64,000 nt of DNA from a candidate division WOR-3 bacterium 4484_18 (lineage in GTDB: Bacteria > Hydrothermota > UBA3073 > NMUJ01). Under the pieces are notes generated by a model, which did not search any database, was not told the DNA's origin, and worked only from the letters and a program-made list of their open reading frames with translations. Positions 2,742 to 60,221 of the stretch are shown piece by piece; the stretch's first letter is position 1; every line of letters begins with the position of its first letter. The DNA is taken from contig NMUJ01000007.1 in assembly GCA_002256535.1 (NCBI GenBank), positions 3,648 to 67,647 on the forward strand. The letters run 5' to 3'. A program made the translations under genes and the position numbers.

Positions 2742-3844
2742 AACTTAAGTTTATCAAACTCAGGTTTCAACATCCCATAGATTTTATCGAGTGCCGCTGA
2801 TACCACCTTTGTATCACCAATCACTGGCATAAAGTTGGTATCCCCCAACCACCTTGGCACAATATGCACATGTATATGGTCGACCACACCCGCACCTGCC
2901 ACTTTACCCACATTTATACCGATGTTGAACCCATGGGGATGCATCACCTTACGCAATATCTCCACAGAGGCTTGCACCAAACGCCCAACCTCCACCAGCT
3001 CTTCTGTAGTCAACTCTCTCAGTTCACCTATGTGACGTGTAGGTGCTACCATCAAATGTCCGTTATTATAAGGGAAGATATTCATGACAACAAAAGCCCA
3101 TTCACTACAATACAGTACATAGCTTTTGCCCATATTTTTGAGCGCCTCACAAAATATGCATCCCCCCTTACGTGGCCCCGTTATATACTCTACACGCCAA
3201 GGTGCCCACAACCTATGTGGTGCAGTTGTCAACAGCTTTTCAGTTGTCTTAAAATGTAACTTCGCCACCCTACCCAATGCGTGTTCACCCTTTGTTAAAA
3301 CAAATTCCTTACCTACCAGCTCCACTTCTGTAGAGGCACCCTTGGGTAACACCACACCTTCGCTTTCCGATAATTTATTTAGTTGCTCCAAAAATGTAGC
3401 ACGTGCCAAAAGTGACGCCAGCATCACCGCAAGCTCCTCCTCCCCATGTGGATGTATCACCAACGGTACCTCTTTCGGGAAATACGTTTTTATAAAATCT
3501 GGATCCGCAAACTGATCTATCACTATACGGTCGCAACTACCTACACTGTTAAGTAGCTTCATCACAACCCTACTATGTAGCCATGCCAAGATATGGTTGA
3601 GATTAGGTGTCCTACTATAGAGCTTATTGTATTCCGTAGGCGCCAGATAGCATATCTCATGTACACACAAATTTTTAATCTCTTCGCTCAAGTATATAGC
3701 TTGTGCATCGGTTACCTTTTTGCTCTCCTTTATCGGTAATTTCTCCAGTTCTGGTAGCTTCTCGTCATCCAAAAATACTGCCGCAACTGCTAATCCACCA
3801 AAATAGTCTCCCTTACCAGCTTCGTCGCTACCTATCCACCTCAT
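2738..3844 (-). CDS. RNase HIII/HII-like nuclease domain fused to a HIT-family (HxHxHxx) nucleotide hydrolase domain
   Basis: The N-terminal ~200 aa contain IGSDEAGKGDYFGGLAVAAV, the RNase HIII-type DE(A/S)GKGDYFGP catalytic motif. The C-terminal ~165 aa contain LWAPWRVEYI...CIFC...HIHVHIVPRW, an Ap4A-hydrolase-like HIT domain with the histidine triad. It is a single uninterrupted 368-aa ORF. Confidence 0.6.
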   Translation of the reverse strand: MRWIGSDEAGKGDYFGGLAVAAVFLDDEKLPELEKLPIKESKKVTDAQAIYLSEEIKNLCVHEICYLAPTEYNKLYSRTPNLNHILAWLHSRVVMKLLNSVGSCDRIVIDQFADPDFIKTYFPKEVPLVIHPHGEEELAVMLASLLARATFLEQLNKLSESEGVVLPKGASTEVELVGKEFVLTKGEHALGRVAKLHFKTTEKLLTTAPHRLWAPWRVEYITGPRKGGCIFCEALKNMGKSYVLYCSEWAFVVMNIFPYNNGHLMVAPTRHIGELRELTTEELVEVGRLVQASVEILRKVMHPHGFNIGINVGKVAGAGVVDHIHVHIVPRWLGDTNFMPVIGDTKVVSAALDKIYGMLKPEFDKLKL

Positions 3845-6022
3845 TTTGTAACTATGTTTATAAGCTTTTTAGGTACCACGATGATACGTTTCACCTGCTT
3901 ACCCATAATATGTTGCCGTATTTTGGGATGTTCCAGTGCCATCTTACGTATATCGTCTTCTGTCACATCAAACGATACCTGCAGACGTGCCCTAAGCTTA
4001 CCATCAACCTGCACCGGTATCTCAATTTCTGGTAGGTATACTTTCCCTGGATCATACTGAGGCCAACTTGCGTGGAAAATAGATCCCTCACCTCCAATCT
4101 TATGCCATAACTCTTCCGCCAAATACGGTGCAAATGGTGCGATCAGCTTCACCAACGTATAAAGCCCATAACCGAGCGTCTCGTCCTTCCCAGACTTATA
4201 GAATTCATTGACAAGTTCCATCAATGTCGCTATCGCAGTATTATAGTGGAAATGTTCAATATCCTCCGTAACCTTCTTTATCGTGTAGTTAATCCTACGC
4301 AATAATATACTATCATTAGCTGGTACATTCTCCGTGATTATATCGGTGTTCTCCGTCACAATCCTATAGACTCGGTCAAGGAACCGCCGTGCACCTTCAA
4401 CTACACGTTCGCTCCATATACCTTCTTTTTCCGGTGGCCCCAGAAACAGCACCCCCACACGTGCAACGTCTGCACCCACCAAATATTTCGTTATCGTTAT
4501 GTGGATCGGTATATCGCAGTTGATACCAAGACGAATCCACGAACGTATCCATCGTATCAGGGTCACGCTTTGCATCCCCTCCACACTGTGGACACTTTGT
4601 ATTTATAAATTCAGGTACCGACTCAAGTGGCGATTTACCTTTAGGAGCGTAATCTACCACTTCAGGTAATTTCACCGGCAACTCTTCCTCCGGTACAGGT
4701 ACCACACCACAACGTGGACAATGTACCATAGGGATTGGTGCACCCCAATAACGTTGCCTCGACACAAGCCAATCCCTAAGATGGAATTGCACCTCCCCAC
4801 CACCCAACCCCATCACCTTGAGCTCATCCGCCACTGCCCAAATACCATCTTCAGATGTAAGCCCCGTAAATTTATCAGATTCTACCATCACCCCATACTC
4901 TTCATAAGCTTTATCGAGCGGTTCACTTAATTCACCATCTACGGGTTTAATCACTACCTTTATCGGTAAGCCATACTTTTTAGCAAACTCAAAATCACGT
5001 TGATCATGTGCAGGTACACCCATTACGATACCTGTCCCGTACGTAGCAAGCACATAATCACATACATAGATCGGAATACGTTCACCCGTAAACGGATGTA
5101 CCGCATATAGGCCTGTGAATACCCCAGTCTTTTCGCGTTCACGTGATGTACGCTCTATTTCCGAAATCCTAAGCGACCTCTCGATATATTGGTGAACCTC
5201 CTCGCTTAAGGGTAAGCCCTCCAATATCTCATGTTCTGGTGCTATCGCAATAAATGTTACCCCAAACACAGTATCAGCACGCGTTGTAAACACCGGTAAC
5301 TGTTTATCGAACTCTGGTAGCTTAAACACGATACGTACACCCTCGCTCTTGCCGAGCCAATTTCGTTGCAGGTTTATCACCTCATCAGGCCATTTACCTT
5401 CGAGATACTTCAGGTCATCCAGCAACCTCTCCGCATATGCGGTAATTTTGAAGAACCATTGGGTTAACTTACGTTTAACCACAAGGCTGCTACAACGCCA
5501 ACATTTGCCATCACTTACCTGTTCGTTAGCTAACACTGTCTGACACCTTGGGCACCAGTTCACATATGCAGGTTTACGATAGGCCAACCCTCTCTTGTAA
5601 AGTAGAAGGAATATCCATTGCGTCCATTTGTAGTACTCCGGTTCGCACGTCAGCACCTCACGTGTCCAATCATAACTTATACCCATGAGTCGATAGCTTT
5701 CACGTGATATCTCGATATTCTTCATTGTCCAATCTCTTGGGTGTATACCATGCCGTATTGCTGCATTCTCTGCGGGTAGGCCAAACGCATCCCAACCCAC
5801 CGGATGCAACACCTGATACCCCTGCATCATTTTATACCGGGTTAGCACATCACCCAACACATAGTTACGTAGATGCCCTATGTGTAAGTCACCTGATGGA
5901 TACGCGAACATCTCCAGTACGTAGAATTTTCTGGCCGGATCCGGTCTATCCGTAGTTCTATAAATACCCTGGGTCTCCCACCACTTACGCCATCTATCCT
6001 CTATTTCATGAATCGGGTACAT
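3841..6022 (-). pseudogene. leuS: Leucyl-tRNA synthetase, disrupted by an internal deletion of ~105 codons (losing the KMSKS region) plus a frameshift near 4486-4490
   Basis: ORF 4397..6022 encodes the LeuRS N-terminus (HIGH motif as PSGDLHIGHLRNY, editing domain, DTFVDSSWYQLRY). ORF 3841..4584 encodes the C-terminus (YLVGADVARVGVLFLGPPEKEG...KLRARL). Manual translation shows the frames join at gataacgaaatatttggtggg. Only ~10 codons separate SSWYQLRY from GADVAR, versus ~125 in E. coli LeuRS, and no KMSKS is present in any frame. Confidence 0.7.
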
Positions 6023-6046
6023 CGAATTTATAACTAAAACTACAGA

Positions 6047-6696: not shown

Positions 6697-7301
6697 TTAC
6701 CGAGATATGCAGCAATAGCTATAAGGGCTTCCCTGTTCCACAAGGTTTTTGGCCAACAATAGCGATTGATAAATAGCAGGTGCTACCTTACGTTCTTCCT
6801 CAGTAAGATATTCGTTTCTTGAGCTCATCGCCAGTCCATCTGGTTCACGTACGGTGGGCCCCACGATTATTTTGACGGGAAAGTTAAGGTCACGCACCAT
6901 CCGTTTTATTATTATTGCCTGTTGTGCATCTTTCTCACCAAATACTGCAATATCTGGCATAACGATATTGACTTCACCTCGACATATGTGGTAAACCCCT
7001 TAGGATACAGGTCATCAACCGATGGGTAAAACATTATATCTACCCCCATCTTCTCAAGTATCTCTTTGTCACGCTTAATATCCCTGGGATATCTATCGTA
7101 ATCTTCACTTGGTCCAAACTGAATGGGGTTGACAAATATACTCACAACCACAATATCAGCATGCTTGCGTGCTATATTTATAAGAGAAGTATGTCCCTCA
7201 TGCAGATACCCCATAGTGGGTACGAACCCCACCGTCTTACCCCGTCTTTTATATTCAAGCGATAGTCGCTGCATATCTTCTAACCGTGTCACGATCCTCA
7301 T
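6697..7301 (-). pseudogene. panC: Pantoate--beta-alanine ligase, disrupted by an internal deletion of ~26 codons plus a frameshift around 6960-6975
   Basis: ORF 6912..7301 encodes the PanC N-terminus ([18 protein letters not shown]). ORF 6697..6960 encodes the C-terminus ([13 protein letters not shown]...AMSSRN). Only ~17 nt separate YVEV from [10 protein letters not shown], versus ~32 codons in E. coli PanC. The conserved RPGHFRGV segment is absent in all frames. Confidence 0.65.
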
Positions 7302-10408: not shown

Positions 10409-10754
10409 GTGACCGGGTGGATCGGGTGGTCGCTCCGATCCGGGGAGGAAAGTCCGGGCACCATAGGGCAGGGTACCCCGTGATAAGCGGGGGCTCTAGG
10501 AGCGATATCTCTTAGAGACGGAAAGTGCCACAGAAAACAGACCGCCAGCGGTCCCGTTCTATGGGATGCGGGCAAGGGTGAAAAGGTGGAGTAAGAGCCC
10601 ACCGCTCTGGTGGTAACACCAGAGGCATGGCAAACCCTACCCGGTGCAAGGCCAAATAGGGGGAGAGGTAGCCCGCCTCGTCATCACCCCGGGTAGGCCG
10701 CTGAGATAGATGACCACCCTCGACAGAACCCGGCTTACAGATCCACCCGGTCAC
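10409..10754 (+). ncRNA. rnpB: RNase P RNA, bacterial type A
   Basis: Contains the universally conserved GGGAGGAAAGTCCGGGC (P4 5' strand) followed by ACCATAGGGCAGGG. Also GGGCAAGGGTGAAAAGGTGGAGTAAGAGCCCACC, CAAACCCTACCCGGTGCAAGGCCAAATAGGGGG and AGATAGATGACCACCCTCGACAGAACCCGGCTTA, all matching E. coli M1 RNA blocks. The terminal P1 helix is GTGACCGGGTGGATC paired with GATCCACCCGGTCAC. Confidence 0.85.
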
Positions 10755-11737
10755 ATCTTGTAGTATGTAGGATAGACCAGTATATAATCACCGAACCCAT
10801 GTTCGTCCACAAATATGAACACCATATTACGTGAATAGTAATACCATATCTCATAGGGCTTATATTCAAGTTCGAATGGGTGTGATTCCACCTCATCCGG
10901 TGGCCCCAATAGTATATAAACTCTACCTCTATCGGTACGCCATCCTTCCCGGGTTTCACGAAAATGTGTATTCGCATACTCTACACGTTCGAGATATGTC
11001 TCCTTATATTCATTATGTGGGGTGCCGGGAGTGGGGTCACGTTTTTTCCAGAACTTCTTCCATAACTGTTCACGCTCGGAGCGAGTTTTGGCCTTCCTGA
11101 ACGCATCCATTTCCTCACCCGTCGCTATGTAAGATAGTACCTCATAGTTATCGATGTACTTCCAATCAAGATATGGACCAAACAGTAACGTATCCTTATA
11201 GACTTTATCACCCAGCCTTAACTGATATATACCCTGCTCTTCGTCAGCCCTCACATATAACGTGCATGGGTAAGTAACTTTATCTCCACTCAAAATTATG
11301 CTGTCAGTTCTATCCCCTATTTTATACCAAACCGTAAAGGGCGCTTTATTTTCACGAAAATCATATACATTGAAAATCAGGTATCCCAAAAGCACACTAT
11401 CTTCTGTTGCTATAAAAATAGGTGACGAAAATGTCAACATACTTTCCGGTTTATCTGGAATCCTGATAGTCTCTCGCTGCTTGGACACAGTTTGTGTCTG
11501 TAGATCACGTAGCTCCACTTCCAACGTATATTCACCTGGTTCAAACGGCCCTATTTTCAGCTCACTTCTGAGCTCATAATACGATACGGTGGTTTCATAT
11601 TCTGGGAACACTCTATGGTCTATGTGGATGTCGCCAATCTCAACTACAAGCAGATATGGGTGCCCATCTTCCCATATAAGGGTTTTTTGGTAACTAAACC
11701 CCACCATAAAAAGGAGTAATACACACCACATACTCAC
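10751..11737 (-). CDS. GWxTD domain-containing protein, secreted
   Basis: 328 aa with an N-terminal signal-like segment. The C-terminal region has GWRTDRGRVYILLGPPDE, the diagnostic GWxTD motif. Confidence 0.7.
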   Translation of the reverse strand: MSMWCVLLLFMVGFSYQKTLIWEDGHPYLLVVEIGDIHIDHRVFPEYETTVSYYELRSELKIGPFEPGEYTLEVELRDLQTQTVSKQRETIRIPDKPESMLTFSSPIFIATEDSVLLGYLIFNVYDFRENKAPFTVWYKIGDRTDSIILSGDKVTYPCTLYVRADEEQGIYQLRLGDKVYKDTLLFGPYLDWKYIDNYEVLSYIATGEEMDAFRKAKTRSEREQLWKKFWKKRDPTPGTPHNEYKETYLERVEYANTHFRETREGWRTDRGRVYILLGPPDEVESHPFELEYKPYEIWYYYSRNMVFIFVDEHGFGDYILVYPTYYKM

Positions 11738-17196: not shown

Positions 17197-17521
17197 CGTA
17201 AAGTCTCTTTAGTAATTTAAGGTGTTCCCATGCCTCTTTTTTCCAACCTCCGTGTCTAAGCAGTGCTGCTGGGTGGAATGTTGGCAACACCTTAATCCCC
17301 TTCCAATCGCATATTTTACCTCGTAGTCTACTGAATTCATACCTACTCTTCTCCAATATTACCGATGTAGCAAACTTACCCAATGTCAATATTATGCTGG
17401 GCTTTATAATTTCGATCTGACGTATTAGATAATCTTTACATGCTATTATCTCCCCCGGTAGGGGATCCCGGTTCCCCGGTGGTCTGCATTTCAGTACATT
17501 CGCTATATAGAAACTCTTCAC
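17171..17521 (-). pseudogene. Family-4 uracil-DNA glycosylase, C-terminal fragment only (N-terminal ~80 aa absent)
   Basis: 116 aa beginning mid-domain (NVLKCRPPGNRDP...HPAALLRHGGW, the family-4 UDG motif B region). The N-terminal GE(G/A)PG motif A region is missing. Only 23 nt separate the ORF start from the coaBC stop, so the missing part cannot be encoded. Confidence 0.5.
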
Positions 17522-18951: not shown

Positions 18952-19923
18952 CTAACTCCTTCTATAAAAAGGTAGTTTCACCATCTCTGCATTCACGCGT
19001 TTCCCTCTTATATCCACCTCCACTTTGGTCCCCACCCCATACGCTATATTGACGTATCCCATACCAATTCCACATCCCAACGTGGGCGAATATCCCCCAC
19101 TCGTAATGTATCCTATCTCCTCATCCCCGAAATATAAGAGCTGCCCCTTCCTCGGTACGGCCTTTGCTTCTCTCACTACTATCCCTACTCTATGTTTTGT
19201 TATCTTCTCCTTCTTCAACTTCAAACTCTCCTTACCTATAAATTCACCCTTGTTGAGTTTCACAACCCATCCTAACTTTGCTTCCCATGGTGTGGTGGCC
19301 TCATTAATATCATTCCCATACAGTGGTAACCCAGCCTCTAACCTCAACACATCCCGTGCAATCAACCCACATACTGCCATATTGTACCTTTTACCCCCTT
19401 CTATCAACCTATCCCATACCTTCACACTTTCTTCGGATAATATGTAAATCTCCACCCCATCCTCCCCAGTATATCCTGTACGAGATACCATCACCTCCAC
19501 ATTATCGATCTCCTCCACCTCCACATTAAATCTTCTGCTATTCTCCCTCACCCATTCATAATCTTTACTTATGTTTGTAGCGTTAACCACCAACATAAAC
19601 TCATCCCCTTCCAACCTGTATACGATTAGATCATCTACAATACCACCTTCCGTATTACACATCATCGAATACTGTGCTGAAAATGGTCTCAGTTTACCCA
19701 CGTCATTTACTGTAATGTAGTTAACGAACTCAACCGCCTCCTTCCCTTTGATACTGAACTCACCCATATGGGATACATCAAACATCCCCACTTTCTCCCT
19801 AACCGCCCGTACCTCTTCTATCACCCCACGATAATACATGGGCATGTAGAAACCCGCAAACTCACCCATCTTCGCACCCAGCTCCACGTGCCTCTCATGG
19901 AGAGGCAACCGCTTCAACATCAC
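18952..19923 (-). CDS. gcvT: Glycine cleavage system T protein (aminomethyltransferase), possibly carrying an in-frame ~35-codon deletion
   Basis: 323 aa with MFDVSHMGEF, VSRTGYTGEDGVEIY and a C-terminal barrel. It is ~40 aa shorter than typical GcvT. The region between NVEVMVS and RTGYTGE that normally holds ~35 residues is missing. Confidence 0.75.
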   Translation of the reverse strand: MMLKRLPLHERHVELGAKMGEFAGFYMPMYYRGVIEEVRAVREKVGMFDVSHMGEFSIKGKEAVEFVNYITVNDVGKLRPFSAQYSMMCNTEGGIVDDLIVYRLEGDEFMLVVNATNISKDYEWVRENSRRFNVEVEEIDNVEVMVSRTGYTGEDGVEIYILSEESVKVWDRLIEGGKRYNMAVCGLIARDVLRLEAGLPLYGNDINEATTPWEAKLGWVVKLNKGEFIGKESLKLKKEKITKHRVGIVVREAKAVPRKGQLLYFGDEEIGYITSGGYSPTLGCGIGMGYVNIAYGVGTKVEVDIRGKRVNAEMVKLPFYRRS

Positions 19924-21020
19924 TCTTCTGGTACGAATCTATCTTTGAGCTTCTCCATAACCTGTGGTAACGTTGTATATTCCATTTCGGCAAGCCCTAA
20001 CCTATGTGGCTCAAACGGTCCATGTGCCCTCATATAGTTTGCGATAACGTTCGCCATACGACGTGCCTCATCGAAACTCGTGTCATCAAACATATCACGT
20101 GGCCCCACAAGCATCCCATCCTGCGTTATTTGTAAGCCTGCTGCTATAACTCGTGGTGGGCCATCAAACCTTGCTGGATTGGCCTGCCCAAATCCCACAG
20201 GCATAAGCGGTCCATGATGAGACCCCCTCATCCATCCTGCCACCAGATGTGGATTCGTAAATGGCTCCAACACCTCACCTACTGCTGGGAAGCCACTCTG
20301 TGTCCTCACTATAAGTACCGGATCGTCCTTCCCTACATATCTACCAGCCATCATCGATAGCTTCTGAGTCGATGACACAGCCGCTATCTTACCATCCTTT
20401 CTGAAGACTCGCTTTATTATGTAATGCTCCATTGCCCCTATTAAAACAAGCATATCGTACATCTCTTCAGGTATATCAAACACTATCTTCTTGTGCTCAT
20501 ACACATCCAAAACCTCAAACTTAAACCCACTATGAAGTTTAGGATCTATCACCAACCCCGCCGTGTTGAACGGATCCGCAAAAATCTTATATAGGATGAA
20601 ATTCCATGCCCCCGGTGATGTTTTATCCGCCATAAAAACAATCACAGGTTCGCTGGGTCTTACCTCTATTTCCATCTCCGCCACACCCGGTCCCATACCC
20701 TTCACATTGCCTGAGAATGCCTCACTAAGTATATCCTGACCCGCTCCGTATAAGCCCATCTTCTTTGCAATCTCCGTACATGCGGTAAATATATCCCATG
20801 CTGTTTTATGGATATCCGGGTTATCTTCACCCTTCGTATGTGTCATTATGAGTTCCAGATCGTCTCCACAATGCAATACCCTATAATCTTTGATGATCCC
20901 TCTCTCTTTTGCCTTAGCTAATTCCTCCTTCGCTTCATCCATAAGCGCTGGATGCATAGAAGAGTGGCCAACATATCCACCAATATCCGCTTTTATCACT
21001 GATAATGTAACCTTACCCAT
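19920..21020 (-). CDS. fbp: Bifunctional fructose-1,6-bisphosphate aldolase/phosphatase (archaeal-type FBPase V)
   Basis: 366 aa, N-terminal TLSVIKADIGGYVGH typical of FBP aldolase/phosphatase. Full length. Confidence 0.8.
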   Translation of the reverse strand: MGKVTLSVIKADIGGYVGHSSMHPALMDEAKEELAKAKERGIIKDYRVLHCGDDLELIMTHTKGEDNPDIHKTAWDIFTACTEIAKKMGLYGAGQDILSEAFSGNVKGMGPGVAEMEIEVRPSEPVIVFMADKTSPGAWNFILYKIFADPFNTAGLVIDPKLHSGFKFEVLDVYEHKKIVFDIPEEMYDMLVLIGAMEHYIIKRVFRKDGKIAAVSSTQKLSMMAGRYVGKDDPVLIVRTQSGFPAVGEVLEPFTNPHLVAGWMRGSHHGPLMPVGFGQANPARFDGPPRVIAAGLQITQDGMLVGPRDMFDDTSFDEARRMANVIANYMRAHGPFEPHRLGLAEMEYTTLPQVMEKLKDRFVPEE

Positions 21021-21031
21021 TTTTTCCTCCT

Positions 21032-21325
21032 TTATTTAATCTCTGACACCATACTTATGGCGCCAAACGGGCACTCCACCGCACATATGCCACATCCCTT
21101 ACAATACTCATAATCTATCACAAAACGCTCATTTTCTATCACAATAGCAGGTTCGGGACAGTACTTCCAACATATTCCACAGTTTTTACATTTCCCATAG
21201 TCGATCACTGGTCGCATCTGGCGCCATGTTCCAGTTTTGTTAACTCGCATACTACTTAATGACACAGCCAATGGTGGCATATCTTCAACACCTGCCCATT
21301 CTATCTTCTTAGCTTCCTTCTTCAT
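21032..21325 (-). CDS. porD: 2-oxoacid:ferredoxin oxidoreductase delta subunit (2x[4Fe-4S] ferredoxin)
   Basis: 97 aa with two CxxCxxCxxxCP motifs (CKNCGICWKYCP, CKGCGICAVECP). Confidence 0.7.
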   Translation of the reverse strand: MKKEAKKIEWAGVEDMPPLAVSLSSMRVNKTGTWRQMRPVIDYGKCKNCGICWKYCPEPAIVIENERFVIDYEYCKGCGICAVECPFGAISMVSEIK

Positions 21326-21882: not shown

Positions 21883-22803
21883 TTTGCCCTCCCTGCCAGT
21901 TCTATCACCTTCATTGCACCCTCCTTCATAGATCGTACCGTGATAAGGTTTGCACTTTCGAGTATCTTCAACGCCTTATCCTCATTCGTCCCAGTCAACC
22001 TAACCATAGCCTTCATCACCTTCTCAGGGCTCGAACTTCCACCAATATCCAAGAAATTAGCAGGCTCCCCCCCATATCGCTTTATTATATCCATAGTAGC
22101 CATAGCGAGACCAGCCCCATTCACTACACACCCTATGTTGCCGTCCAATTTTATATAGCTCAGCCCATACTTTTTGGCTTCCCATTCCTTGACCTCATCT
22201 TCCTCTGGCTCACGCATAAGTTCTTGCCTTCTATACAACCCATTGTCATCGATTATAACTTTAGCATCACACGCATATATTTTACTTGCTGTATCAACTG
22301 CTAATGGGTTGATCTCCACAAGCGTAGCATCGTTCTCCTTGAATGCCCTGAATAGGTTCAAATATATCCTTGTGGCTTGCTTCCTAAGTTCAGGTTCCCC
22401 AAATACCTTAAACGCCAGCTGCCTCGCCTGATACGGCATAAGTTCAAACAACCCCATATCGATTGTCGTCTTGTATATCTTCTCAGGTTTCTCTCTCGCT
22501 ACCTCTTCAATATCCACACCACCCTCATCACTTGCCATAACTGTTACACTTTGACGTGCACGGTCCAACACCACCCCTATATAAGTCTCCCTTGTAATGT
22601 CGATCGCCCTTGCCACCAGTACCTTTTTAACTGTTATACCTACCTCTACCACCTACTAACACTTGTGCTTTGATCACTACTGGTAACCCCACCTCTTTCG
22701 CTACTTCTACTGCTTCATCTTTGGAAGTCACCACCTTACCTTCACCAAACGGTATCCCATATTTTTTTAGTAACTCTCTACTCAAATATTCCGGTAGCTT
22801 CAT
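21879..22803 (-). pseudogene. sucC: Succinyl-CoA synthetase remnant: sucC with a ~35-codon deletion plus frameshift, then an in-frame deletion fusing sucC to the last ~30 codons of sucD
   Basis: Frame 1 (ATG 22803) reads MKLPEYLSRELLKKYGIPFGEGKVV...AQVLVGGRG then stops. A second frame from 22652 continues VKKVLVARAIDITRETYIGVVLDR...LDIGGSSSPEKVMKAMVRL (SucC). It then runs directly into TGTNEDKALKILESANLITVRSMKEGAMKVIELAG, which matches the SucD C-terminus ([26 protein letters not shown]). About 1 kb of sucC 3' plus sucD is absent. Confidence 0.6.
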
Positions 22804-22820
22804 TTCTCATTAAAATACGT

Positions 22821-24067
<1,247 letters not shown>

Positions 24068-34764: not shown

Positions 34765-34879
34765 TTCTTTGATAAAATATCAACATGCTTGAACCCGTCA
34801 AGCAGCTATTTTTGCACTCTTAGCATCCAAATTGAAGTTGACAACGTTTACTTCACCCTAATTTTAAGGTATCTTAATA

Positions 34880-36691
34880 ATGATGGATAAACAAGCCCTT
34901 ACCAAGTTTATCAAATCTGCCATACTACCGGGATGGTGTCATGGGCTACGTGGATGGACAGTTACGGGGTTACCCAACCATAGCGAGAAAGTTCTACGTG
35001 GTGTTGATGGCTCAATTATGGCAACCACATGGAATTTCTATTTAAACTTCTGGTTATGGATAGACGACGAGCTGATCACACCGGAGACCCTACCTCTGAA
35101 CAAAATTGAACATCATCTTGACAGTGGTCACTTACCTATATCGATATTTGAGTTCCATCATAAGGATATATTGATGCGTAACACCTTAACCGTAATCGAT
35201 GGTGCCACCAATGGCATAGGTCTCATAAATGTAGATGTTGAAAACCTCTCCCCCACCCGACATAAAGTAGTATTGGGTTTAGTAGTACGTCCGTTTAGGG
35301 TTAACGAGCAGATGGGCGCTATTTCTCACCTCTCTTACGCCGATCGTATATTATCGATCAATGATAAATTCCATATATTTGTAGAAGGTAACCCGCAGTT
35401 TGTTATAACTTCGTTGTTCGAAGGTAATGAACTATCACCCAAAGGTGACGATAAGGTACCCCAATTACTAAGTGGTGCCTTGATGTACAACCTAAGGATG
35501 GCACCAGGTGCCGGCAAACATATCAAATTTCGCTTCAATATCGACCCCATGGACCGTCGCTCTGCCGTCACTCTGTTGCATAGGTTACCCATTTATTTAC
35601 CCATAGATAAGGTACGTACGTACTGGAGGACATTACTTTACAGGACACGTTGGCATATACCAGCACCGTTACCTGATGCAATCTATGCATCGCTCGCTTA
35701 CATTCTTATCAACATGGCCGATAACCAATTACGTCCCGGACTTACGTTTTACAACTATTTCTGGTATCGTGACGCCGCATATATTGTGGCTGCCCTGTTA
35801 CGCTATGGGTATGCAGATTTTGTGAAACGCACTTTACCAACTTTTATGGAAGGTCAATTACCTACTGGAGAGTTTCCCCCTATATTGGACGACAGGTTAC
35901 GCCCTGTAAAACCCATCAAACGTCTAAAGGAATGGGATTCACAAGGTCAAGCCATCTTCGCCATCGCTGAATACTATAGATTTACAGGTGATAAGGAAAT
36001 GCTCAAAACTTACTATCCACACATCCAACGTGCTGCCGAATATATTTTAAAACAGCGTACTCGTCGGCTCAAGGAACGTCTACGTAACACCCCTTACTAT
36101 GGATTGTTACCACCGTCGTGGTCGGCGGAAGACCTCGGTTCTGACAAATGGCATCATTACTGGGACGATTTCTGGTGTGTCATAGGGTTACGTGATGCTG
36201 CATTCATAAGCAGGATATTGGGCAAACAGGATAGCCACCGATACGAAGCTGCTGCATCGGAGCTACTTAACTCGGTCTTTAATTCCATACAGATACTTAT
36301 AAGACGTAAAAAAATCAAATGGATACCGAATGGTCCAGAGGATTTGAACTCCTCATCAATGGCACGTGGTACATCACCATTATTGTGGCCTGGTAGGCTG
36401 GTGGATACTTCCAACACCTTAGTACGCGAATCGTTCGATTACTACTTCAAGAAGTGGATACAACCTTATGGTGGTGGATACTACCACCAGAAGCATTTTT
36501 GGCCATATGGGTTAGAATTGGCCACCTGCTATCTTATACTTAGGCAACCACAGCGTGCACATATGATATTAGATTGGTACCTACAGCATCAAACCGTACC
36601 CGGTACGTATGCATGGGCTGAGGTTATTGATGATATCAACCCATGGTGGTCGAGAATCTACCCACGTATTTTGGACAAATCGATGCCATAA
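34880..36691 (+). CDS. Six-hairpin (alpha/alpha)6 glycosidase-like protein (GH15/GH63-related)
   Basis: 603 aa. The motif YNYFWYRDAAYIVAALLRYGY resembles the WxRD signature of GH15-type glucoamylase/glucodextranase catalytic domains. Family level only. Confidence 0.4.
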   Translation: MMDKQALTKFIKSAILPGWCHGLRGWTVTGLPNHSEKVLRGVDGSIMATTWNFYLNFWLWIDDELITPETLPLNKIEHHLDSGHLPISIFEFHHKDILMRNTLTVIDGATNGIGLINVDVENLSPTRHKVVLGLVVRPFRVNEQMGAISHLSYADRILSINDKFHIFVEGNPQFVITSLFEGNELSPKGDDKVPQLLSGALMYNLRMAPGAGKHIKFRFNIDPMDRRSAVTLLHRLPIYLPIDKVRTYWRTLLYRTRWHIPAPLPDAIYASLAYILINMADNQLRPGLTFYNYFWYRDAAYIVAALLRYGYADFVKRTLPTFMEGQLPTGEFPPILDDRLRPVKPIKRLKEWDSQGQAIFAIAEYYRFTGDKEMLKTYYPHIQRAAEYILKQRTRRLKERLRNTPYYGLLPPSWSAEDLGSDKWHHYWDDFWCVIGLRDAAFISRILGKQDSHRYEAAASELLNSVFNSIQILIRRKKIKWIPNGPEDLNSSSMARGTSPLLWPGRLVDTSNTLVRESFDYYFKKWIQPYGGGYYHQKHFWPYGLELATCYLILRQPQRAHMILDWYLQHQTVPGTYAWAEVIDDINPWWSRIYPRILDKSMP

Positions 36692-42676: not shown

Positions 42677-43668
42677 TAGAACGTTACACGTTACCACCGT
42701 TTGATAAGCTATGGAGTTTGGAAAACAAGTATAATGTTTGGCTAAAAGTGGAGCTTGCCTTTCTCGAGGCACGTGCAGAGCTGGGTGAAGTCGATCGTGA
42801 TACCGTAGAGCTGATAAAGGAACGTGCAAAATTTGACATCCAGGAGATTGCGAAAATCGAACGTCAGGTGCAACACGATGTTATAGCGTTTCTCACAAAT
42901 GTAGCCTCCTATGTAGGTGAACCTGCAAAAGAGCTACATTATGGGTTAACATCGTACGATATGGTCGATACTGCACTTGCAATCCTTATGCTGGAAGCGG
43001 GTGAAGCCATCCGATCTGCATTAGAGGAGTTACTGGAGAGTTTGAAGAAGAAAGCACTAATGGCGACATCACTTGAAAAGATAGCAACTGAGTTACGTCA
43101 GCTACAACGTACGGAGATACATGAGGTGGAGGAGCTCTTCGGTACACGCCAGAAGGGGTCATCCGCCATGCCGCATAAGAAGAACCCCATCCTAAGTGAA
43201 CGTATGTGTGGGTTAGCACGTATCGTACGTAGCCACATAATGGCAGCCTTACAGAATATGGTGTTGTGGAACGAACGTGACATATCGAACTCATGTGTTG
43301 AACGGATAATTTTACCTGAAAGTACCACATTGGTATACTATATGCTCAAGAAAACAAAAGACAATATCGATAACTTACGAATTCTGCGTGACAATATGGA
43401 GCGTAACTTAGAATTAACGAAGGGTGTGATATTTTCGGAAGCTGTCATGTTGGCACTCATAAAGAAAGGGCTCACCCGCCAATCCGCATATGATATGGTG
43501 CAACGTGCCGCTTTTAGGAGCTACGAAACTGGTAAGCATTTCAAGCATGTGTTGATGGAGGATACTAACATACGTGAATATTTGGACGAAAACGAGATCG
43601 ATTCACTGTTCGATCTTCAACATTACTTCCGTCATATAGATGCAATCTACAAGAAGGTGTTGGGTTGA
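42673..43668 (+). CDS. purB: Adenylosuccinate lyase carrying an in-frame ~100-codon internal deletion (junction ~43050-43065), probably inactive
   Basis: 331 aa versus ~430 expected. It has [13 protein letters not shown] and the signature [11 protein letters not shown]. The segment between ...[12 protein letters not shown] and [17 protein letters not shown] lacks the ~100 residues that include the catalytic GRTHGQ.A.PTTFG motif. Confidence 0.7.
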
Positions 43669-44509: not shown

Positions 44510-45221
44510 TAATATTCTATGGCTGGCGGCATTTTTCATACTTGGTGCTATATTCGGTAGCTTCTTCAATGTATGTATCTACAGGATACCAAGGAAAAAG
44601 TCGATCATTTCACCACGCTCACACTGTCCAATGTGTGGCCACACCATCCCATGGTACGATAATATACCTATAATCTCCTACATTTTATTGAAAGGTAAGT
44701 GTCGCTTCTGTGGTGCTACCATACCATTAAGATACCTCACCGTGGAGCTACTCACTGCATGTATGTTCAGCTTATGTTTTTACATATTTGGGGTTGGATT
44801 GAAATTACTTATTACTCTTGTCCTGCTATCGTTTTTACTTGTAACAGCTTTCATAGATATAGAAATGGGTATCATACCGAACACAATAGTATTACCCGGT
44901 ATGGCTATCGGTGTCATCCTCAACACCGTACAGGGTAAAATCATCGATTCATTACTTGGACTCTTGACAGGTGGAATAGTGGTTTATATTTTAAGTGTGA
45001 TGGGTAAAATCTTGTTTAAGAAAGATGCAATAGGTGGTGGTGACATGAAGTTACTCGCGATGATAGGTGCTTATATAGGTTGGTATCTTACGTTATGGGT
45101 GTTATTTCTTGCATCTTTCATCGGTCTAATTTATGCCATTTTTTCACGTAAGCGTAAATTGATGTTCGCACCCTTCCTCGCGATTGCCACATTCATATTG
45201 TTGATACTACGCCATCCTTAG
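44493..45221 (+). CDS. pilD: Type IV prepilin peptidase (A24 family)
   Basis: 242 aa with the N-terminal Zn-binding CPMCGHTIPWYDNIPIISY...CRFCGA tetracysteine, catalytic Asp regions and a GGGDMKLLAMIGAYIG motif. Confidence 0.8.
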   Translation: MYLHVNNILWLAAFFILGAIFGSFFNVCIYRIPRKKSIISPRSHCPMCGHTIPWYDNIPIISYILLKGKCRFCGATIPLRYLTVELLTACMFSLCFYIFGVGLKLLITLVLLSFLLVTAFIDIEMGIIPNTIVLPGMAIGVILNTVQGKIIDSLLGLLTGGIVVYILSVMGKILFKKDAIGGGDMKLLAMIGAYIGWYLTLWVLFLASFIGLIYAIFSRKRKLMFAPFLAIATFILLILRHP

Positions 45222-46419: not shown

Positions 46420-49400
46420 AAGGGGATACCAACAACATTATACCGATGCTATTGGAGATTTCACCACATAATTTCATGTTGTTGGATAACACCGGTAAAA
46501 TACTGCAGATCAGCAAAGCGGTAGAGCGATCACTCGGATATAAATCGAACTCTATTGTAGGTAAGAATTTCGCCACACTTATACCCAAGAAATACCATAA
46601 AGCATTTATTGATACTCTTGATAAGCGCACAAACTCTACGTTGATGTTGGAAGTTAAATCTCACGCCGGTAATCTCATACCAGTTGAATTATCATTATTA
46701 TGGCTACCCACAAAGGAACCACAGATATTACTGAATCTACGTGACGTTAGTGAATTAAACCGTCTCGAGAACATGCTCGTCTCTCTACGTAGAAAATATA
46801 TTTCACGTTACAGGTTTTATCGCAAATTACTGGAAATATGTCCAGTAGGTGTGATAGAACTCGACTCCCACCTACGTATCGTATATGAGAATCCCGAAAT
46901 GAAGCGGATCCTTGGTGTACCACCCGGCGAAGAATCATCCGCTATAGGTATGGATATTAGAGAACTTCCTTCGGTTAAAGAGACAGGATTGTCTGAGCTG
47001 TTTGATGATTTACTCAAAGGTAAGAAGATACAAAAAATAGGGTGGTTCAAGTCAATTTATGAAAGAGAGTCCCACTTGCTACTGACTGGCATCCCAGTCG
47101 TTGAAGATGGTAAATTCCAAGGTGCGGTGCTCTTCATAGAGGATTTAACCGAGTTAAAGCGTTCGGAGGAACAGCGTCGTAAACAGATCGAGAGTGTCCT
47201 CAACATAACTGGTAAATTGTTATTAGAACGCGATCTAAATAAATTATTACAGCTTATATGTGATACGATCACAAACGAACTCGGTTGGCGTCAGGTGATA
47301 CTTTCACTTCGTGACTATGATACGATGACGTCAAGACCTGTTGCCGTAGCGGGTTACGATGCAAAGACTGTAGCTGAAAGCCGCTCCTACTACATAGATC
47401 ACACACACTGGGAGGAGCTTAAAAAATATCCAAGCAAATTATACATAACACCCGTAAAAGAGATTACACCTGGTGGTTGGCACGAAAAGGACCTACTACT
47501 TATACCAATTTATGGAAAAGATGACAAAATATTGGGGTTCATTTCACCCGATAACCCAGTAACTGGTAAACGGCCAACTCTTGAGGATATTAAACTGCTC
47601 GAGATATTCGCTGACCAAGCTGCGATTGCAATAGAGAATCTGCGTAAAATTGAGCTCTTTTTACAGACTTCTACGCTCATTAACTTAGGGATAGGGTTAA
47701 AGGAAACATTAGAAAAAATAATAGATGCTATAGTTGAGATTATGGGGTCCTGCTGTTGCTCATTACGGTTAGTTGATAAAGACAGAAATGTGCTTGTAAC
47801 AAAAGTAGTACGAGGGTTGGGCAAAGAATATTTAAAATATAGAAAAGAAGTACCCATTGGTAAACATTCATATGATATAAGTGGATTGGCGGCGATGGAC
47901 GGCAAGATCCATTATGTACGAGATCTCAGTAAACTCGGCCTCCCGCGGGAAGTGGAAGAACACATTATAAAGAAATACAACTTAAAATCGTACATTGCTA
48001 TACCGATTAAAGCAGGTAAGGAAGTGTTAGGTGTCGCCAGTGTCATGCTACACGAGTGTAAAGAGTTCGCCGAGGATGAACTGAAACTACTTTCAGTATT
48101 TACTGAACAAGCTGCACTGGCCATCACTAAAGCACGCATGTATGATATGGTTAAAGAATCGGAAAAGAAGTATCGAGTTATGTTTGAGAGCACCGGTACT
48201 GCGATGATGGTTCTTGAAGAAGACACCACTATCTCCATGGTAAATGCTGAGTTCGAAAAACTATCTGGTTACTCACGGGCTGAAATCGAAGGTAAAATGA
48301 GCTGGACAGTATTTGTACATCCAGACGATGTTGAGCGTATGAAACGTTACCACTATGAACGAAGGAAGAAGGGGGGTAAAGCACCAGGGAATTACGAGTT
48401 TAGGTTCATCGACCGTCACGGTAACCTCAAATACATGTATATAACCGTCAGTATGATACCTGGGACCAAGCAAAGCATTGCATCACTTATTGATATAACC
48501 GAACTTAAACGAGCAGAAGAAGCATTACGTGAGAGTGAAGCCCGTTATATGGATCTGTATGATAACGCTCCTGATATGTACTTCACAATAGCAGAGGACG
48601 GTACAATTCTATCAGTTAATCGCCTGGGTGCAGAGATGTTAGGTTATAAGAAGGAAGAATTAATTGGAAAACATATATCGATAATATTCCATCCAGATGA
48701 TGCTCCATTAGTGGAACGACAAATCGATGAGATCCTGAGAAAGAAAGAAGGGGTTTCGAAGCTTGAATTTCGAAAAGTTCGTAAGGATGGCAGTATAATG
48801 TATGTCAGTGAACGTGCTTCTGTACATTGTGGGCCACAAGGAAAGCGTGTAGTTCGTATTATTTGTCGAGATATCACCAAACGTAAGCAAATCGAGAAGG
48901 AGCTCAAAAGCCGCAAAGAGTTTCTGCAAACTATCCTTGATAGCACACCAGACCTTATCTTTACAGTAAAGAAGGATGGTACAATCGGATTCGCAAATAA
49001 GCGGTTAAGGGAGATACTCGGGTATGAACTCGATGAAGTAAAAGGTAGACATTTCTTTGAAGCCGTCCCAAAGGAGTTACACCCCTACATGCAGAAAAAA
49101 TGGGAAGAAGTTCAAAACGGTATCTCCGGTGTTTACGAGACAAAAGTCATAAAGAAAGATGGCTCTATAGTAGATTGCCTTGTATCACATGTACCCCTTA
49201 CGGGTATGGATGAATATGTTGCTATACTTAAAGATGTTAGCGAGCTTAAGCATATACAACAGGAACTTGAGTTACGTAAATTATATCTCGAAAGCTTAAT
49301 AAATAGCGCCCCTAACGCCATAATAACACAGGATAACGAAGGTAGGGTCTGCGAATGGAACGCAGCCGCTGAGAAGCTATTCGGCTATAAAGCTGAAGAA

Positions 49401-54782: not shown

Positions 54783-54783
54783 T

Positions 54784-58478: not shown

Positions 58479-58888
58479 CACGTAAATTGTTACTTATAGT
58501 GCTGCTGGGTGCGTTAGGTTATGCGGTATATGTGTGGTTTATGAAACCACCATCCAGCAGAAAATTAGCCTTTAAACCCACTCCGAAAAAGCCTCCAACA
58601 GAGCTAAAACTTCATGAGGAGCCAACTCCATCCGTTAAATACGTTGAATATAGTTGGGACGAAGATCCATTTGCAAAGTTATCAACGGTTTCACCTACAT
58701 TATCTCAAGGGGCACAATTACAACTACGTGGCATACTCTGGGATAATAAAGGAGGTCTTGCCATGATAAACGATAATTTAGTAAAAGTAGGTGACACCAT
58801 CGGTGGTTGGCATGTGATACGTATCACCCCTTCATACGTGATCCTCAAACAGGGTGAAATGGAGATAAAACTAACTCCTACAGAATGA
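58475..58888 (+). CDS. pilP: Type IV pilus assembly lipoprotein PilP-like
   Basis: 137 aa with a signal/TM, a Pro-rich linker and a C-terminal beta domain (LRGILWDNKGGLAMINDNLVKVGDTIGGWHVIRI) resembling PilP. Confidence 0.55.
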   Translation: MTRKLLLIVLLGALGYAVYVWFMKPPSSRKLAFKPTPKKPPTELKLHEEPTPSVKYVEYSWDEDPFAKLSTVSPTLSQGAQLQLRGILWDNKGGLAMINDNLVKVGDTIGGWHVIRITPSYVILKQGEMEIKLTPTE

Positions 58889-60221
58889 TGATCACTTATT
58901 TGATCGCATTTCTTTTAATTCCATCCATGGCAACGGGGGTAACTTTAACTTCTGTCGATACTGATAAGATAAAGGATGTAACCTTAGTTACCATCTACGG
59001 TGACGATACCCTCAGGATGGACATTGGCTACCCAACTATCAAGCCAAACGTCACCCGTATCGTGATGGATGTCACAAACATACAGGGTTACAGTGTGTTA
59101 GAACGCGATACGTCTATAACTGTAGGGATTGTCCCACTTCATGTCGAAAAACTATACCCTAAGGAAATTGCTAAACTACGTAAAGCGCCACTCATCACAC
59201 TTGACTTAACGAATGCCGATATCCGCAATGTGCTCAAAATGTTGGCTGATAGATACAACTTGAACATAGTAATAAGTGAAGCTGTAACTGGATTCATAAC
59301 CGTACATCTGAAGAAAGTTACCCCTTTGGAAGCATTTCAATCCATCCTTCAGGCAGCAGGTTGCACATTTGTGGAATCCGAAGGCATACTTATTGTCAAA
59401 CCACTTGCTGAGACACAAACTATTGAGATGGATACTCGCATATTTAAGCTCGAACATCTTGATGCTACTGATGCGAAGGAAAGTATTAAAAACCTCTTAT
59501 CCCTGTATTGAAAGAAATGGATAAACCCTTACCTCAGGTTAGTATCGAAGCGAGGTTCATCGAAACACGGCTCACCAAAGACGAAGCTATGGGGATCGAC
59601 TGGTCTATGCGGTTACGTATGGCAGGCGTAACTACACCGTTACCATTTATACCAGCCATGCACTGGGAAGAAATGACGATTGCTACATTGTCACCAGCTG
59701 AACTCACTGCGCTGCTCGAAATACTCCAACGTGAAGGTAGATCGCGCTTGCTATCCAACCCACATGTGGCAACCCTTGAGAACCAACCTGCTGTGATAAC
59801 GGTTGGTACAACTGTACCAATACGTCAGGTGATGATAGAACCCGCAACTGGTAGGGAGATAGTAACCTACGTTGAACGTTATATTCCCATATCATTAAAA
59901 GTCACCCCACGTATCAGCGAAGATAAATATATTACCATGACGATAACGCCATCTGTTGAGGAGATCGTCGAATGGCGTGGCCCACCTGGTGAGGAGCGCC
60001 CTGTTACCTCCAAACGTGAAGCTACCACCCAGATAACCGTTAGAGATGGTGAAACCATAACGATTGGTGGGTTGATAAAAGAAGATCGCATAAGGACAAC
60101 TGGCAAAATACCGATATTAGGTGATATACCCATACTCAGTCGTCTATTCCGTTACGATAAAATAGAAAGAAAGCGTTCTGAGTTACTTATATTGATCACA
60201 CCACATATACTGTCACGATAA
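58885..60221 (+). pseudogene. pilQ: Type IV pilus secretin PilQ, split by a ~35-codon deletion plus frameshift at ~59490-59511
   Basis: ORF 58885..59511 has a signal peptide, an AMIN-like region, N0 (ITLDLTNADIRNVLKMLADRYNLNIVI) and the start of N1 (IFKLEHLDATDAKESIKNLLS). ORF 59508..60221 has the secretin domain (LPQVSIEARFIE...GKIPILGDIPILSRLF). The second frame has a stop at 59487-59489, so the missing N1-to-secretin linker cannot be encoded. Confidence 0.65.

What the first reader, a model, noticed from the sequence alone, without database searches (positions are those of the whole stretch)
3841..60221. Window-wide pattern: at least ten conserved genes carry internal deletions of tens to hundreds of codons (with or without frameshift), while very long ORFs are intact
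Manual translation across junctions shows leuS, panC, udg, sucC/sucD, tsaE, buk, purB, pilQ and probably gcvT each lack a contiguous block of conserved sequence (about 25 to about 340 codons). About half also have a frame change exactly at the junction. The por operon likewise lacks porA/porB. In contrast the 1426-aa kinase, the 854-aa HExxH protein, pilB (679 aa), thrS (630 aa) and hutU (568 aa) read through with no frameshift, so random base-level indel error is unlikely. The options are (i) a real lineage undergoing deletion-driven gene decay, (ii) chimeric or collapsed assembly (for example MDA chimeras in a single-cell genome, or population deletions collapsed in a MAG), or (iii) something stranger. 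Several losses hit essential functions (LeuRS KMSKS region, PurB catalytic His region), so if real the organism must have second copies or depend on a partner.
Basis: seen in the sequence. Interest (0 to 1): 0.7.

Follow-up and report, generated by a model that had tools for sequence, protein, structure and literature searches.

The report
Lost scaffold gaps mimic gene deletions
The many "internal deletions" are real in this deposited sequence, but they are almost certainly places where short assembled pieces were butted together and the 34-302 bases between them were lost. Every other assembly of the same microbe has the genes whole, so this is an assembly artefact and not gene decay.

Summary
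The window is a 68-kb scaffold of the GenBank MAG "candidate division WOR-3 bacterium 4484_18" (Guaymas Basin; IDBA-UD scaffolds, 2x125-bp reads, 360-420-bp inserts). Near-identical contigs (99-100%) from other assemblies of Guaymas metagenomes cover window 1-63899. Against them the window lacks 18 segments of 34-302 bp and never has extra sequence.

The gaps hit leuS, panC (twice), a GWxTD protein, udg, gcvT, a sucC-like gene (twice), tsaE, buk (twice), one intergenic stretch, a GH78-like gene, purB, the "intact" 1426-aa kinase (really 1448 aa), pilQ (twice), and the Ku/ligase boundary, where the two genes are fused.

- The missing segments encode the expected conserved motifs.
- They are present in every other assembly checked, including relatives at about 93% identity.
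- Each shortened protein checked occurs on one contig only, this MAG's.
- Junctions show chance-level microhomology and no preference for keeping the reading frame.
- Three junctions lie in or at the ends of 8 kb that has zero substitutions.
- Pieces are at least 236 bp and gaps at most 302 bp, which fits paired-end scaffolding.

The absence of porA/porB and sucD is shared with the intact contigs, so it is not a deletion. Verdict: an assembly or deposit artefact, not biology. It matters only for database hygiene.

The parts
4480..4481 (-). Join 1, in leuS. 239 bp are missing (aa 515-594 of the 806-aa LeuRS, including the KMSKS-type loop 'VMSSS'). The frame shifts, giving ORFs 4397-6022 and 3841-4584.
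   Evidence: Five other assemblies (JGI, ENA SPAdes and MEGAHIT) and the GTDB representative L033 carry the segment.
6731..6740 (-). Join 2, in panC. 129-131 bp are missing (aa about 213-256 of 287). The junction is ragged, with 1-2 odd bases.
   Evidence: L033.
6971..6972 (-). Join 3, in panC. 76 bp are missing (aa 111-136) and the frame shifts.
   Evidence: L007, L015 and L033 keep the segment.
11645..11646 (-). Join 4, in the GWxTD-domain protein. 96 bp are missing in frame (aa 21-53 of 350).
   Evidence: L015 and L016 keep it.
17511..17512 (-). Join 5, in the family-4 uracil-DNA glycosylase gene. 302 bp are missing (aa 15-116 of 228, including the GEAPG motif).
   Evidence: L014-L018 keep it.
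19508..19511 (-). Join 6, in gcvT. 117 bp are missing in frame (aa 137-176 of 361).
   Evidence: L014-L018 keep it.
22004..22006 (-). Join 7, in the sucC-like gene. 132 bp are missing in frame (aa 293-337 of 378).
22640..22641 (-). Join 8, in the sucC-like gene. 80 bp are missing (aa 55-81) and the frame shifts. The next 294-bp piece (22641-22934) is only 95% identical to both references.
22934..22935 (-). Join 9, in tsaE. 46 bp are missing (aa 88-103 of 140) and the frame shifts.
23342..23348 (-). Join 10, in buk (an Acetate_kinase-family gene). 34 bp are missing (aa 296-307 of 356) and the frame shifts.
23677..23680 (-). Join 11, in buk. 166-167 bp are missing (aa 130-185) and the frame shifts.
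34872..34873 (.). Join 12, intergenic. 206 bp are missing between the tRNA-Gly/tRNA-Val genes and the GH78-like gene. In the reference this stretch holds a called 58-aa ORF and no Rfam element.
36634..36635 (+). Join 13, in the rhamnosidase-like (GH78-like) gene. 136 bp are missing (aa 586-631 of 680) and the frame shifts, giving a 603-aa product.
   Evidence: In one search, all the other near-full-length listed members of the 36-member cluster are 679-680 aa.
43054..43058 (+). Join 14, in purB. 297 bp are missing in frame (aa 129-228 of 430, including GRTHGIHAEP), giving a 331-aa product.
   Evidence: The junction 46-mer is absent from the JGI metagenome contigs.
47379..47380 (+). Join 15, in the PAS/GAF histidine kinase.
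59023..59024 (+). Join 16, in pilQ. 108 bp are missing in frame (aa 47-83 of 516).
59503..59504 (+). Join 17, in pilQ. 106 bp are missing (aa 243-278) and the frame shifts, giving ORFs 58885-59511 and 59508-60221.
62032..62034 (+). Join 18, at the Ku/ligase boundary. 130-131 bp are missing (the last 28 aa of the 255-aa Ku and the first 16 aa of the 318-aa ATP-dependent ligase). This creates an artefactual 529-aa Ku-ligase fusion, OYV03428.1.
21020..21032 (-). There is no gap here. The order sucC-like, porG, porD, FBPase, with no porA/porB and no sucD, is the same in the intact contigs and in relatives.

Best explanation
The 18 "deletions" are joins between separately assembled contigs inside one IDBA-UD scaffold of the MAG WOR-3 bacterium 4484_18.

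**Proposed sequence of events.**
1. Short contigs (236 bp to 11.6 kb) were ordered correctly by read pairs.
2. The 34-302 bp of unassembled sequence between them is not represented, not even as N.
3. The flanks are therefore simply abutted.
4. Gene callers then read through the joins. They produce shortened proteins when the gap length is a multiple of 3, split ORFs when it is not, and one false Ku-ligase fusion.

**What is shown and what is inferred.**
- Shown: the gaps are private to this deposit, and the real population carries the full sequence.
- Inferred: the joins are scaffold gaps, and the gap was lost in one of two ways.
- Because all 18 joins and no run of N are seen in 64 kb, systematic stripping seems the likelier of the two. 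I could not test this.
For: **Source.**
- Exact protein look-ups place the window in GenBank MAG 'candidate division bacterium WOR-3 4484_18', proteins OYV03404-OYV03428, on a 68-kb contig.
- The paper (PMC5569505) states that IDBA-UD scaffolds were used (k 75-105, seed_kmer 55), with 2x125-bp reads, 360-420-bp inserts, and reads from two depths pooled.

**The gaps are one-sided.**
- Contigs from ENA re-assemblies of two Guaymas samples, plus JGI, MEGAHIT and SPAdes contigs, cover window 1-63899 at 97-100% identity.
- The window lacks 18 segments and has no extra segment.

**The missing segments are genuine.**
- They restore full Pfam coverage and conserved motifs.
- They are present in JGI contigs at about 93% nucleotide identity and in a GTDB representative MAG. 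All of these align with the intact contigs without any gap at these sites.

**The shortened forms are private.**
- The 331-aa PurB, 529-aa Ku-ligase, 1426-aa kinase and 603-aa glycosidase each sit on one contig only.
- The full-length forms occur in JGI, ENA and Logan assemblies.
- The purB junction 46-mer has 0 hits in the JGI metagenome contigs.

**The junctions look like abutted contig ends.**
- Microhomology is at chance level: the 13 clean junctions have a mean of 0.69 bp, against a simulated null of about 0.7.
- 7 of 18 gap lengths are multiples of 3, against an expected 6.
- 17 of 18 gaps fall in coding sequence, as expected from the coding density.
- All pieces are at least 236 bp. IDBA's minimum contig length is 200 (from my memory of the program).
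- The largest gap, 302 bp, is close to insert size minus two 55-bp seeds (my inference).

**Natural evolution does not fit.**
- Joins 34872, 36634 and 43056 lie in or at the ends of 8.15 kb with 0 substitutions against scaffold_419.
- Successive short pieces between 17511 and 23345 match different samples' haplotypes perfectly: sample 743, then neither, then 742, then neither (95%), then 743.
Against: - No reads could be mapped and the original scaffold.fa could not be seen. The step that lost the gaps is therefore inferred.
- As far as I recall, IDBA-UD writes N for positive gap estimates, so an extra unrecorded step (N stripping) or a systematic misestimate of gap length has to be assumed.
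- I could not confirm that SAMN06251742 and SAMN06251743 are the dive-4484 samples. Only the shared study label and BioProject and the 100%-identical blocks suggest it.
- The missing segments are not unusually polymorphic between the two reference assemblies, so the reason the contigs broke at these spots is unexplained. Low k-mer coverage at k 75-105 is my guess.
- Mismatches between assemblies are patchy everywhere, so the haplotype switching at joins is only suggestive.
Confidence: 0.92

Rival explanations
1. Real biology: a lineage or subpopulation of this Stahlbacteria/WOR-3 organism is undergoing deletion-driven gene decay and survives through second gene copies or a partner.
For: - The deletions are truly present in the deposited sequence, and about 60% of them shift the reading frame in genes that are normally essential.
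- The MAG is small and scores only 53% complete.
- No reads were checked.
Against: - The deletion alleles occur on one contig only, while intact alleles at 99-100% identity dominate every other assembly.
- There are 18 deletions against 0 insertions.
- Three deletions lie in or at the ends of 8.15 kb without a single substitution. That is an indel-to-substitution ratio not expected from natural divergence.
- There is no microhomology and no frame bias.
- Gap sizes are capped at about 300 bp, the scale of the library insert.
- Relatives at 93% identity keep all the segments.
Confidence: 0.03
2. A different assembly error: de Bruijn graph collapse or a chimeric mis-join at short repeats, population deletion variants merged by bubble popping, or chimeras from whole-genome amplification.
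For: - The sample holds several co-existing strains. Mismatch patches of 5-10% divergence over 50-350 bp are common, and one 294-bp piece is only 95% identical to both references.
- IDBA-UD merges bubbles, and the reads were pooled from two depths.
Against: - Graph collapses need a shared k-mer (k >= 75 here) at both ends, but the junctions share 0-3 bp, which is chance level.
- The paper describes direct library preparation from 100 ng of DNA and no amplification.
- Order and orientation are perfectly collinear with the references, with no inversion or relocation.
- The missing segments are not polymorphic between the references.
Confidence: 0.05
3. The reference contigs are the wrong ones: they carry artefactual insertions and the window is correct.
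For: None found. It is considered only because most of the references come from one re-assembly project.
Against: - The extra segments encode the conserved cores of LeuRS, PurB, UDG, GcvT, Buk and others, and they complete the Pfam profiles.
- They are present in contigs from at least four assemblers or sources and in relatives at 93% identity from other samples.
Confidence: 0.003

Closest known systems
Scaffold gaps and local misassemblies in short-read metagenome-assembled genomes, such as the IDBA-UD scaffolding errors that curation scripts repair by read mapping (from my own knowledge)
   Same: - The sequence is collinear with the true genome.
- Errors sit at contig boundaries.
- Gap sizes are limited by the library insert.
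- The errors are private to one assembly.
- Genes appear truncated, frameshifted or fused.
   Different: The gaps here are not marked by N, so the sequence looks continuous. The deposit's annotation has translated across them, for example OYV03411.1 and OYV03428.1.
Pseudogene-rich genomes in reductive evolution, such as Mycobacterium leprae and recently host-restricted symbionts (from my own knowledge)
   Same: Many conserved genes are interrupted by deletions and frameshifts while their neighbours stay intact.
   Different: - Decay of that kind is shared by all members of the lineage, comes with many substitutions, and shows varied lesion types and sizes.
- Here the lesions are private to one assembly, lie in otherwise 100%-identical DNA, are all deletions of 34-302 bp, and are absent from the same population assembled in other ways.
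The naturally split LeuRS (alpha/beta subunits) of Aquifex aeolicus (from my own knowledge)
   Same: leuS appears as two ORFs, an N-terminal catalytic and editing part and a C-terminal anticodon-binding part.
   Different: - The two ORFs here overlap out of frame and lack 80 residues of the catalytic core.
- All other assemblies of this organism have a single 806-aa LeuRS.

Membership tests
Scaffold-join artefact (contigs abutted, gap sequence lost) | Differences from the true sequence run one way only (sequence is missing, never added), and order and orientation are preserved. | tested here: met
   18 missing segments, 0 extra segments, all alignments collinear.
Scaffold-join artefact (contigs abutted, gap sequence lost) | The junctions are private to the one assembly. 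Other assemblies of the same population carry the full sequence. | tested here: met
   - The shortened proteins sit on one contig only, while full-length forms are in JGI, ENA and Logan.
- Intact contigs are 99-100% identical.
- The purB junction 46-mer is absent from the JGI metagenome contigs.
Scaffold-join artefact (contigs abutted, gap sequence lost) | Junctions have no sequence basis: no repeat or microhomology, no frame preference, and random placement relative to genes. | tested here: met
   - Microhomology has a mean of 0.69 bp against a null of about 0.7.
- 7 of 18 gap lengths are multiples of 3.
- 17 of 18 gaps are in coding sequence.
Scaffold-join artefact (contigs abutted, gap sequence lost) | Gap sizes and piece sizes fit the library and the assembler: gaps smaller than the insert, pieces larger than the minimum contig length. 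| tested here: met
   - Gaps are 34-302 bp against inserts of 360-420 bp and a seed of 55.
- Pieces are at least 236 bp.
- The assembler's 200-bp minimum contig length is from memory.
Scaffold-join artefact (contigs abutted, gap sequence lost) | The joins coincide with contig ends in the original assembly, and no read spans them. | not testable with these tools
   Neither the raw reads nor the original scaffold.fa are available here.
Genuine pseudogenisation / reductive genome decay | The lesions are present in the organism's DNA, so they are recovered by independent assemblies of the same population. | tested here: not met
   All other assemblies are intact at all 18 sites.
Genuine pseudogenisation / reductive genome decay | The lesions are accompanied by a proportionate number of substitutions and by mixed lesion types. 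| tested here: not met
   - There are 0 substitutions in 8.15 kb that is bounded and interrupted by 3 gaps.
- The only lesion type is loss of 34-302 bp.
- There are no stand-alone small indels.
Amplification (MDA) chimera | The DNA was amplified before sequencing, and the rearrangements are mostly inversions. | tested here: not met
   - The methods describe direct libraries from extracted DNA.
- No inversions are seen.

The most novel reading that the evidence does not exclude
The 4484 sediment really held a defective clone or sub-lineage of this Stahlbacteria population that had just acquired about one 30-300-bp deletion every 3.5 kb, including in leuS, purB and tsaE. This would have happened through some burst-like, homology-independent deletion process, and IDBA-UD happened to assemble that haplotype.
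Probability: 0.02. Interest if true: 0.6.

Novelty: not a real feature. Interest (0 to 1): 0.07.

Why it matters
As biology it does not matter, because the organism's genes are whole.

It matters for data quality:
- A public GenBank MAG, and the UniProt/UniRef entries derived from it, contain shortened proteins. Examples are the 331-aa "PurB" OYV03411.1 / A0A257LXD9 and the 1426-aa kinase OYV03415.1.
- It also contains at least one false domain fusion, the Ku-ligase OYV03428.1 / A0A257LUR7.
- The gaps are unmarked, so nothing in the record warns the user.
- At roughly one join per 3.5 kb, this may help explain the MAG's low completeness score (53%). It could also mislead metabolic reconstruction, fusion-based function prediction, or models trained on such sequence.
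- Other MAGs produced by the same workflow deserve the same check.

Tried and rejected
1. **Contigs broke at hypervariable segments.** Rejected. The missing segments show 0-1 differences between the two reference samples, no more than their flanks.
2. **Microhomology at junctions.** The first BLAST overlaps (up to 10 bp) suggested it. Exact left and right extension plus 5000 simulations showed chance level. The large overlaps came from BLAST extending through mismatches.
3. **Haplotype switching exactly at joins as proof of separate contigs.** The blocks do differ, but mismatches are patchy everywhere. I keep this only as supporting evidence.
4. **Looking for the deposit's own scaffold in public collections.** I wanted to see whether N runs once stood at the joins. 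A junction search of the JGI metagenome contigs gave 0 hits. The GTDB scan returned sister MAGs but not this one.
5. **Identifying IMG metagenomes 3300005098 and 3300005099 in the literature.** No paper names them.
6. **A regulatory RNA in the lost intergenic 206 bp.** Rfam found nothing beyond the neighbouring tRNAs.
7. **The split LeuRS as a natural two-subunit enzyme.** Rejected.
8. **Loss of porA/porB and sucD as deletions.** Rejected, because the gene order is the same in the intact contigs and in relatives.

Full report
**What the window is.**
- Exact-sequence look-ups place the window's proteins in GenBank as OYV03404-OYV03428 of "candidate division bacterium WOR-3 4484_18", a metagenome-assembled genome (MAG), on one 68-kb contig.
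- The MAG (ex4484_18, Stahlbacteria/WOR-3) is 53% complete by CheckM, 0.886 Mb, in 78 scaffolds.
- It comes from Dombrowski et al. 2017 (PMC5569505). Guaymas Basin sediment DNA was sequenced directly as 2x125 bp with inserts of about 360-420 bp.
- Reads of two depths of dive 4484 were pooled and assembled with IDBA-UD (k 75-105, seed_kmer 55). The resulting scaffolds of at least 5 kb were binned.
- The window contains no N.

**Checking the observation.**
- I looked up intact window proteins (thrS, FBPase, PilC, a TPR protein, a 130-aa protein) in public assemblies. This returned near-identical contigs from other assemblies.
- Two were ENA re-assemblies labelled DOMB18-1_SAMN06251742 and DOMB18-1_SAMN06251743: scaffolds 419, 150, 13845, 13588, 6788 and 41152.
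- The others were two IMG metagenomes, a MEGAHIT contig, a SPAdes contig and a Logan contig.
- Together they cover window 1-63899 at 97-100% identity.
- In them the genes are whole:

| Gene | Length in intact contigs |
|---|---|
| LeuRS | 806 aa |
| PanC | 287 aa |
| UDG | 228 aa |
| GcvT | 361 aa |
| sucC-like | 378 aa |
| TsaE | 140 aa |
| Buk | 356 aa |
| PurB | 430 aa |
| PilQ | 516 aa |
| Kinase | 1448 aa |
| GH78-like | 680 aa |
| Ku and ATP-dependent ligase | 255 aa and 318 aa, as separate genes |

- BLASTN chaining shows that the window lacks 18 segments and never has extra sequence:

| Window position | Missing (bp) | Location |
|---|---|---|
| 4480 | 239 | leuS |
| ~6735 | 129-131 | panC |
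| 6971 | 76 | panC |
| 11645 | 96 | GWxTD protein |
| 17511 | 302 | udg |
| 19510 | 117 | gcvT |
| 22005 | 132 | sucC-like |
| 22640 | 80 | sucC-like |
| 22934 | 46 | tsaE |
| 23345 | 34 | buk |
| 23678 | 166-167 | buk |
| 34872 | 206 | intergenic |
| 36634 | 136 | GH78-like |
| 43056 | 297 | purB |
| 47379 | 66 | kinase |
| 59023 | 108 | pilQ |
| 59503 | 106 | pilQ |
| 62033 | 130-131 | Ku/ligase boundary |

- The only other indels are 1-2 bases right at junctions and one 9-bp tandem-repeat polymorphism.
- The missing pieces encode the expected conserved cores: the LeuRS KMSKS-type loop, PurB GRTHGIHAEP, UDG GEAPG and others.
- Pfam profile coverage is broken in the window's products and complete in the reference products.
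- Three details are wrong:
  1. The porA/porB and sucD "losses" (junction 21030) are the native gene order, shared by all references and relatives.
  2. The gaps are 11-101 codons long, not up to 340.
  3. The "intact" 1426-aa kinase itself carries an in-frame 66-bp gap.

**Are the gaps in the organism or only in this assembly?**
- The four shortened or fused proteins I looked up are the 331-aa PurB, the 529-aa Ku-ligase, the 1426-aa kinase and the 603-aa glycosidase. Each occurs on a single contig, the MAG's. Their 90%-identity clusters are otherwise filled with full-length forms from JGI, ENA and Logan assemblies.
- A 46-mer spanning the purB junction has no match in the JGI metagenome contigs.
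- Five JGI contigs, one at 98% and four at about 93% nucleotide identity, align with the intact scaffold_419 without any gap at these sites. Against the window they break at the same places.
- A GTDB representative MAG at about 94% identity does the same for leuS and panC.
- The segments are therefore ancestral, conserved and present in the very population sampled. Their absence is private to this deposit.

**What the junctions look like.**
- With exact left and right extension, the 13 clean junctions share 0-3 bases (mean 0.69). This is indistinguishable from 5000 sets of simulated random deletions (null mean about 0.7).
- The larger "overlaps" in the first BLAST table were extensions through mismatches.
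- Seven of 18 gap lengths are multiples of three, against an expected six.
- Seventeen of 18 fall in coding sequence, as the coding density predicts.
- There is no shared boundary motif, judged by eye from the junction sequences.
- The pieces between joins range from 236 bp to 11.6 kb.
- The largest gap is 302 bp. This is about what read pairs from 360-420-bp inserts can bridge if each read needs a seed of about 55 bp (my inference).
- Window 34872-43056 has 0 mismatches to scaffold_419 over 8.15 kb, yet it is bounded and interrupted by three gaps.
- Between 17511 and 23345, successive pieces match perfectly sample 743, then neither, then 742, then neither (95%), then 743.
- All this is what abutted, independently assembled contigs look like. 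It is not what natural deletions or k-mer-mediated graph collapses look like.

**Best explanation.**
- The joins are contig boundaries inside an IDBA-UD scaffold whose gap sequence is not represented.
- Shown: the sequence is wrong at these 18 places and the organism's genes are whole.
- Inferred: the loss happened in one of two ways. Either the scaffolder assigned non-positive gap lengths, or runs of N were removed before the file went to NCBI.
- The second seems likelier, because all 18 joins are bare and there is not one N in 64 kb.
- The loss happened before GenBank annotation, because the deposited proteins read straight across the joins.
- Why the contigs broke where they did is not explained. 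The missing segments are not hypervariable between the two references. Thin k-mer coverage at k 75-105 with 125-bp reads is my guess.

**Rivals.**
- *Real gene decay* is contradicted by four things: the gaps are private, there are no substitutions around them, their sizes are capped at the insert scale, and relatives keep the segments.
- *Amplification chimeras* are excluded by the methods and by perfect collinearity.
- *Repeat or bubble collapse* is unlikely without any shared sequence at the ends.
- *Erroneous insertions in the references* are excluded by motif content and by independent assemblers.

**Caveats.**
- I could not map reads or see the original scaffold file.
- I infer, but did not verify, that SAMN06251742 and SAMN06251743 are among the four 2017 libraries. 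The grounds are the shared study label and BioProject and multi-kb blocks of 100% identity.

**Verdict.** This is an assembly or deposit artefact, not a biological feature. Its interest is low except as a warning: unmarked gaps at roughly one per 3.5 kb have put shortened proteins and a false Ku-ligase fusion into GenBank and UniProt.

Noticed in passing
L007 14169-15468 (IMG metagenome 3300005099, contig Ga0072682_102014), in pheT/pheS just outside the window: This other public contig of the same species has its own private small indels (-8, -13, -13 and +2 bp). They break pheT/pheS into four or five ORFs. The SPAdes contig L008 and the GTDB representative L033 agree with each other and are intact there. 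This may be a second assembly from the same workflow with a similar problem, but I could not establish where that IMG data set comes from.
   Followed up: partly
window 61351-62940: The 529-aa 'Ku protein / DNA ligase (ATP)' entry (OYV03428.1, UniRef100_A0A257LUR7) is a false fusion created by join 18. The organism has separate, adjacent Ku (255 aa) and LigD-type ligase (318 aa) genes, which form an NHEJ pair.
   Followed up: yes
window 2738-3844 (- strand): A 368-aa protein joins an RNase HII-family domain to a HIT/DcpS_C domain. Unlike the Ku-ligase, this fusion is present with the same length in all seven other assemblies, so it is genuine.
   Followed up: partly
window 19920-22652 (- strand): The gene order is a sucC-like ATP-grasp/CoA-ligase gene, then porG (POR gamma), porD (ferredoxin-type delta), then a class V fructose-1,6-bisphosphate aldolase/phosphatase. 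There is no porA/porB or sucD nearby. This order is conserved in relatives at 93% identity. The role of a lone gamma-delta pair next to a sucC-like gene was not examined.
   Followed up: no
window-wide, for example 13357-13455, 19758-19864, 26034-26131, 28463-28610, 30869-31220, 45075-45128, 52217-52403: Differences between the MAG and the re-assemblies are not spread evenly. They sit in patches of 50-350 bp with 5-10% divergence, separated by kilobases of identity. This fits mosaic consensus across co-existing strains, or local recombination.
   Followed up: partly
window 24551-24575: There is a 9-bp tandem repeat (CTTTACCTC; EVK on the coding strand) at the 5' end of the adenosine-specific-kinase-like gene. 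It differs in copy number between the window and sample 743 (L003), which is a natural in-frame length polymorphism.
   Followed up: no
window 37576-40140: The 854-aa protein with an HExxH motif has no Pfam hit on record. It is conserved at 844-854 aa in many Guaymas and related assemblies, including one contig labelled 'archaeon' (RLG63182.1), which may be a binning error.
   Followed up: no
window 10414-10753: A bacterial class A RNase P RNA (253 bits) lies here intact on the + strand. The ORFs listed over it on the - strand (10512-10754, 10735-10977) are spurious.
   Followed up: no
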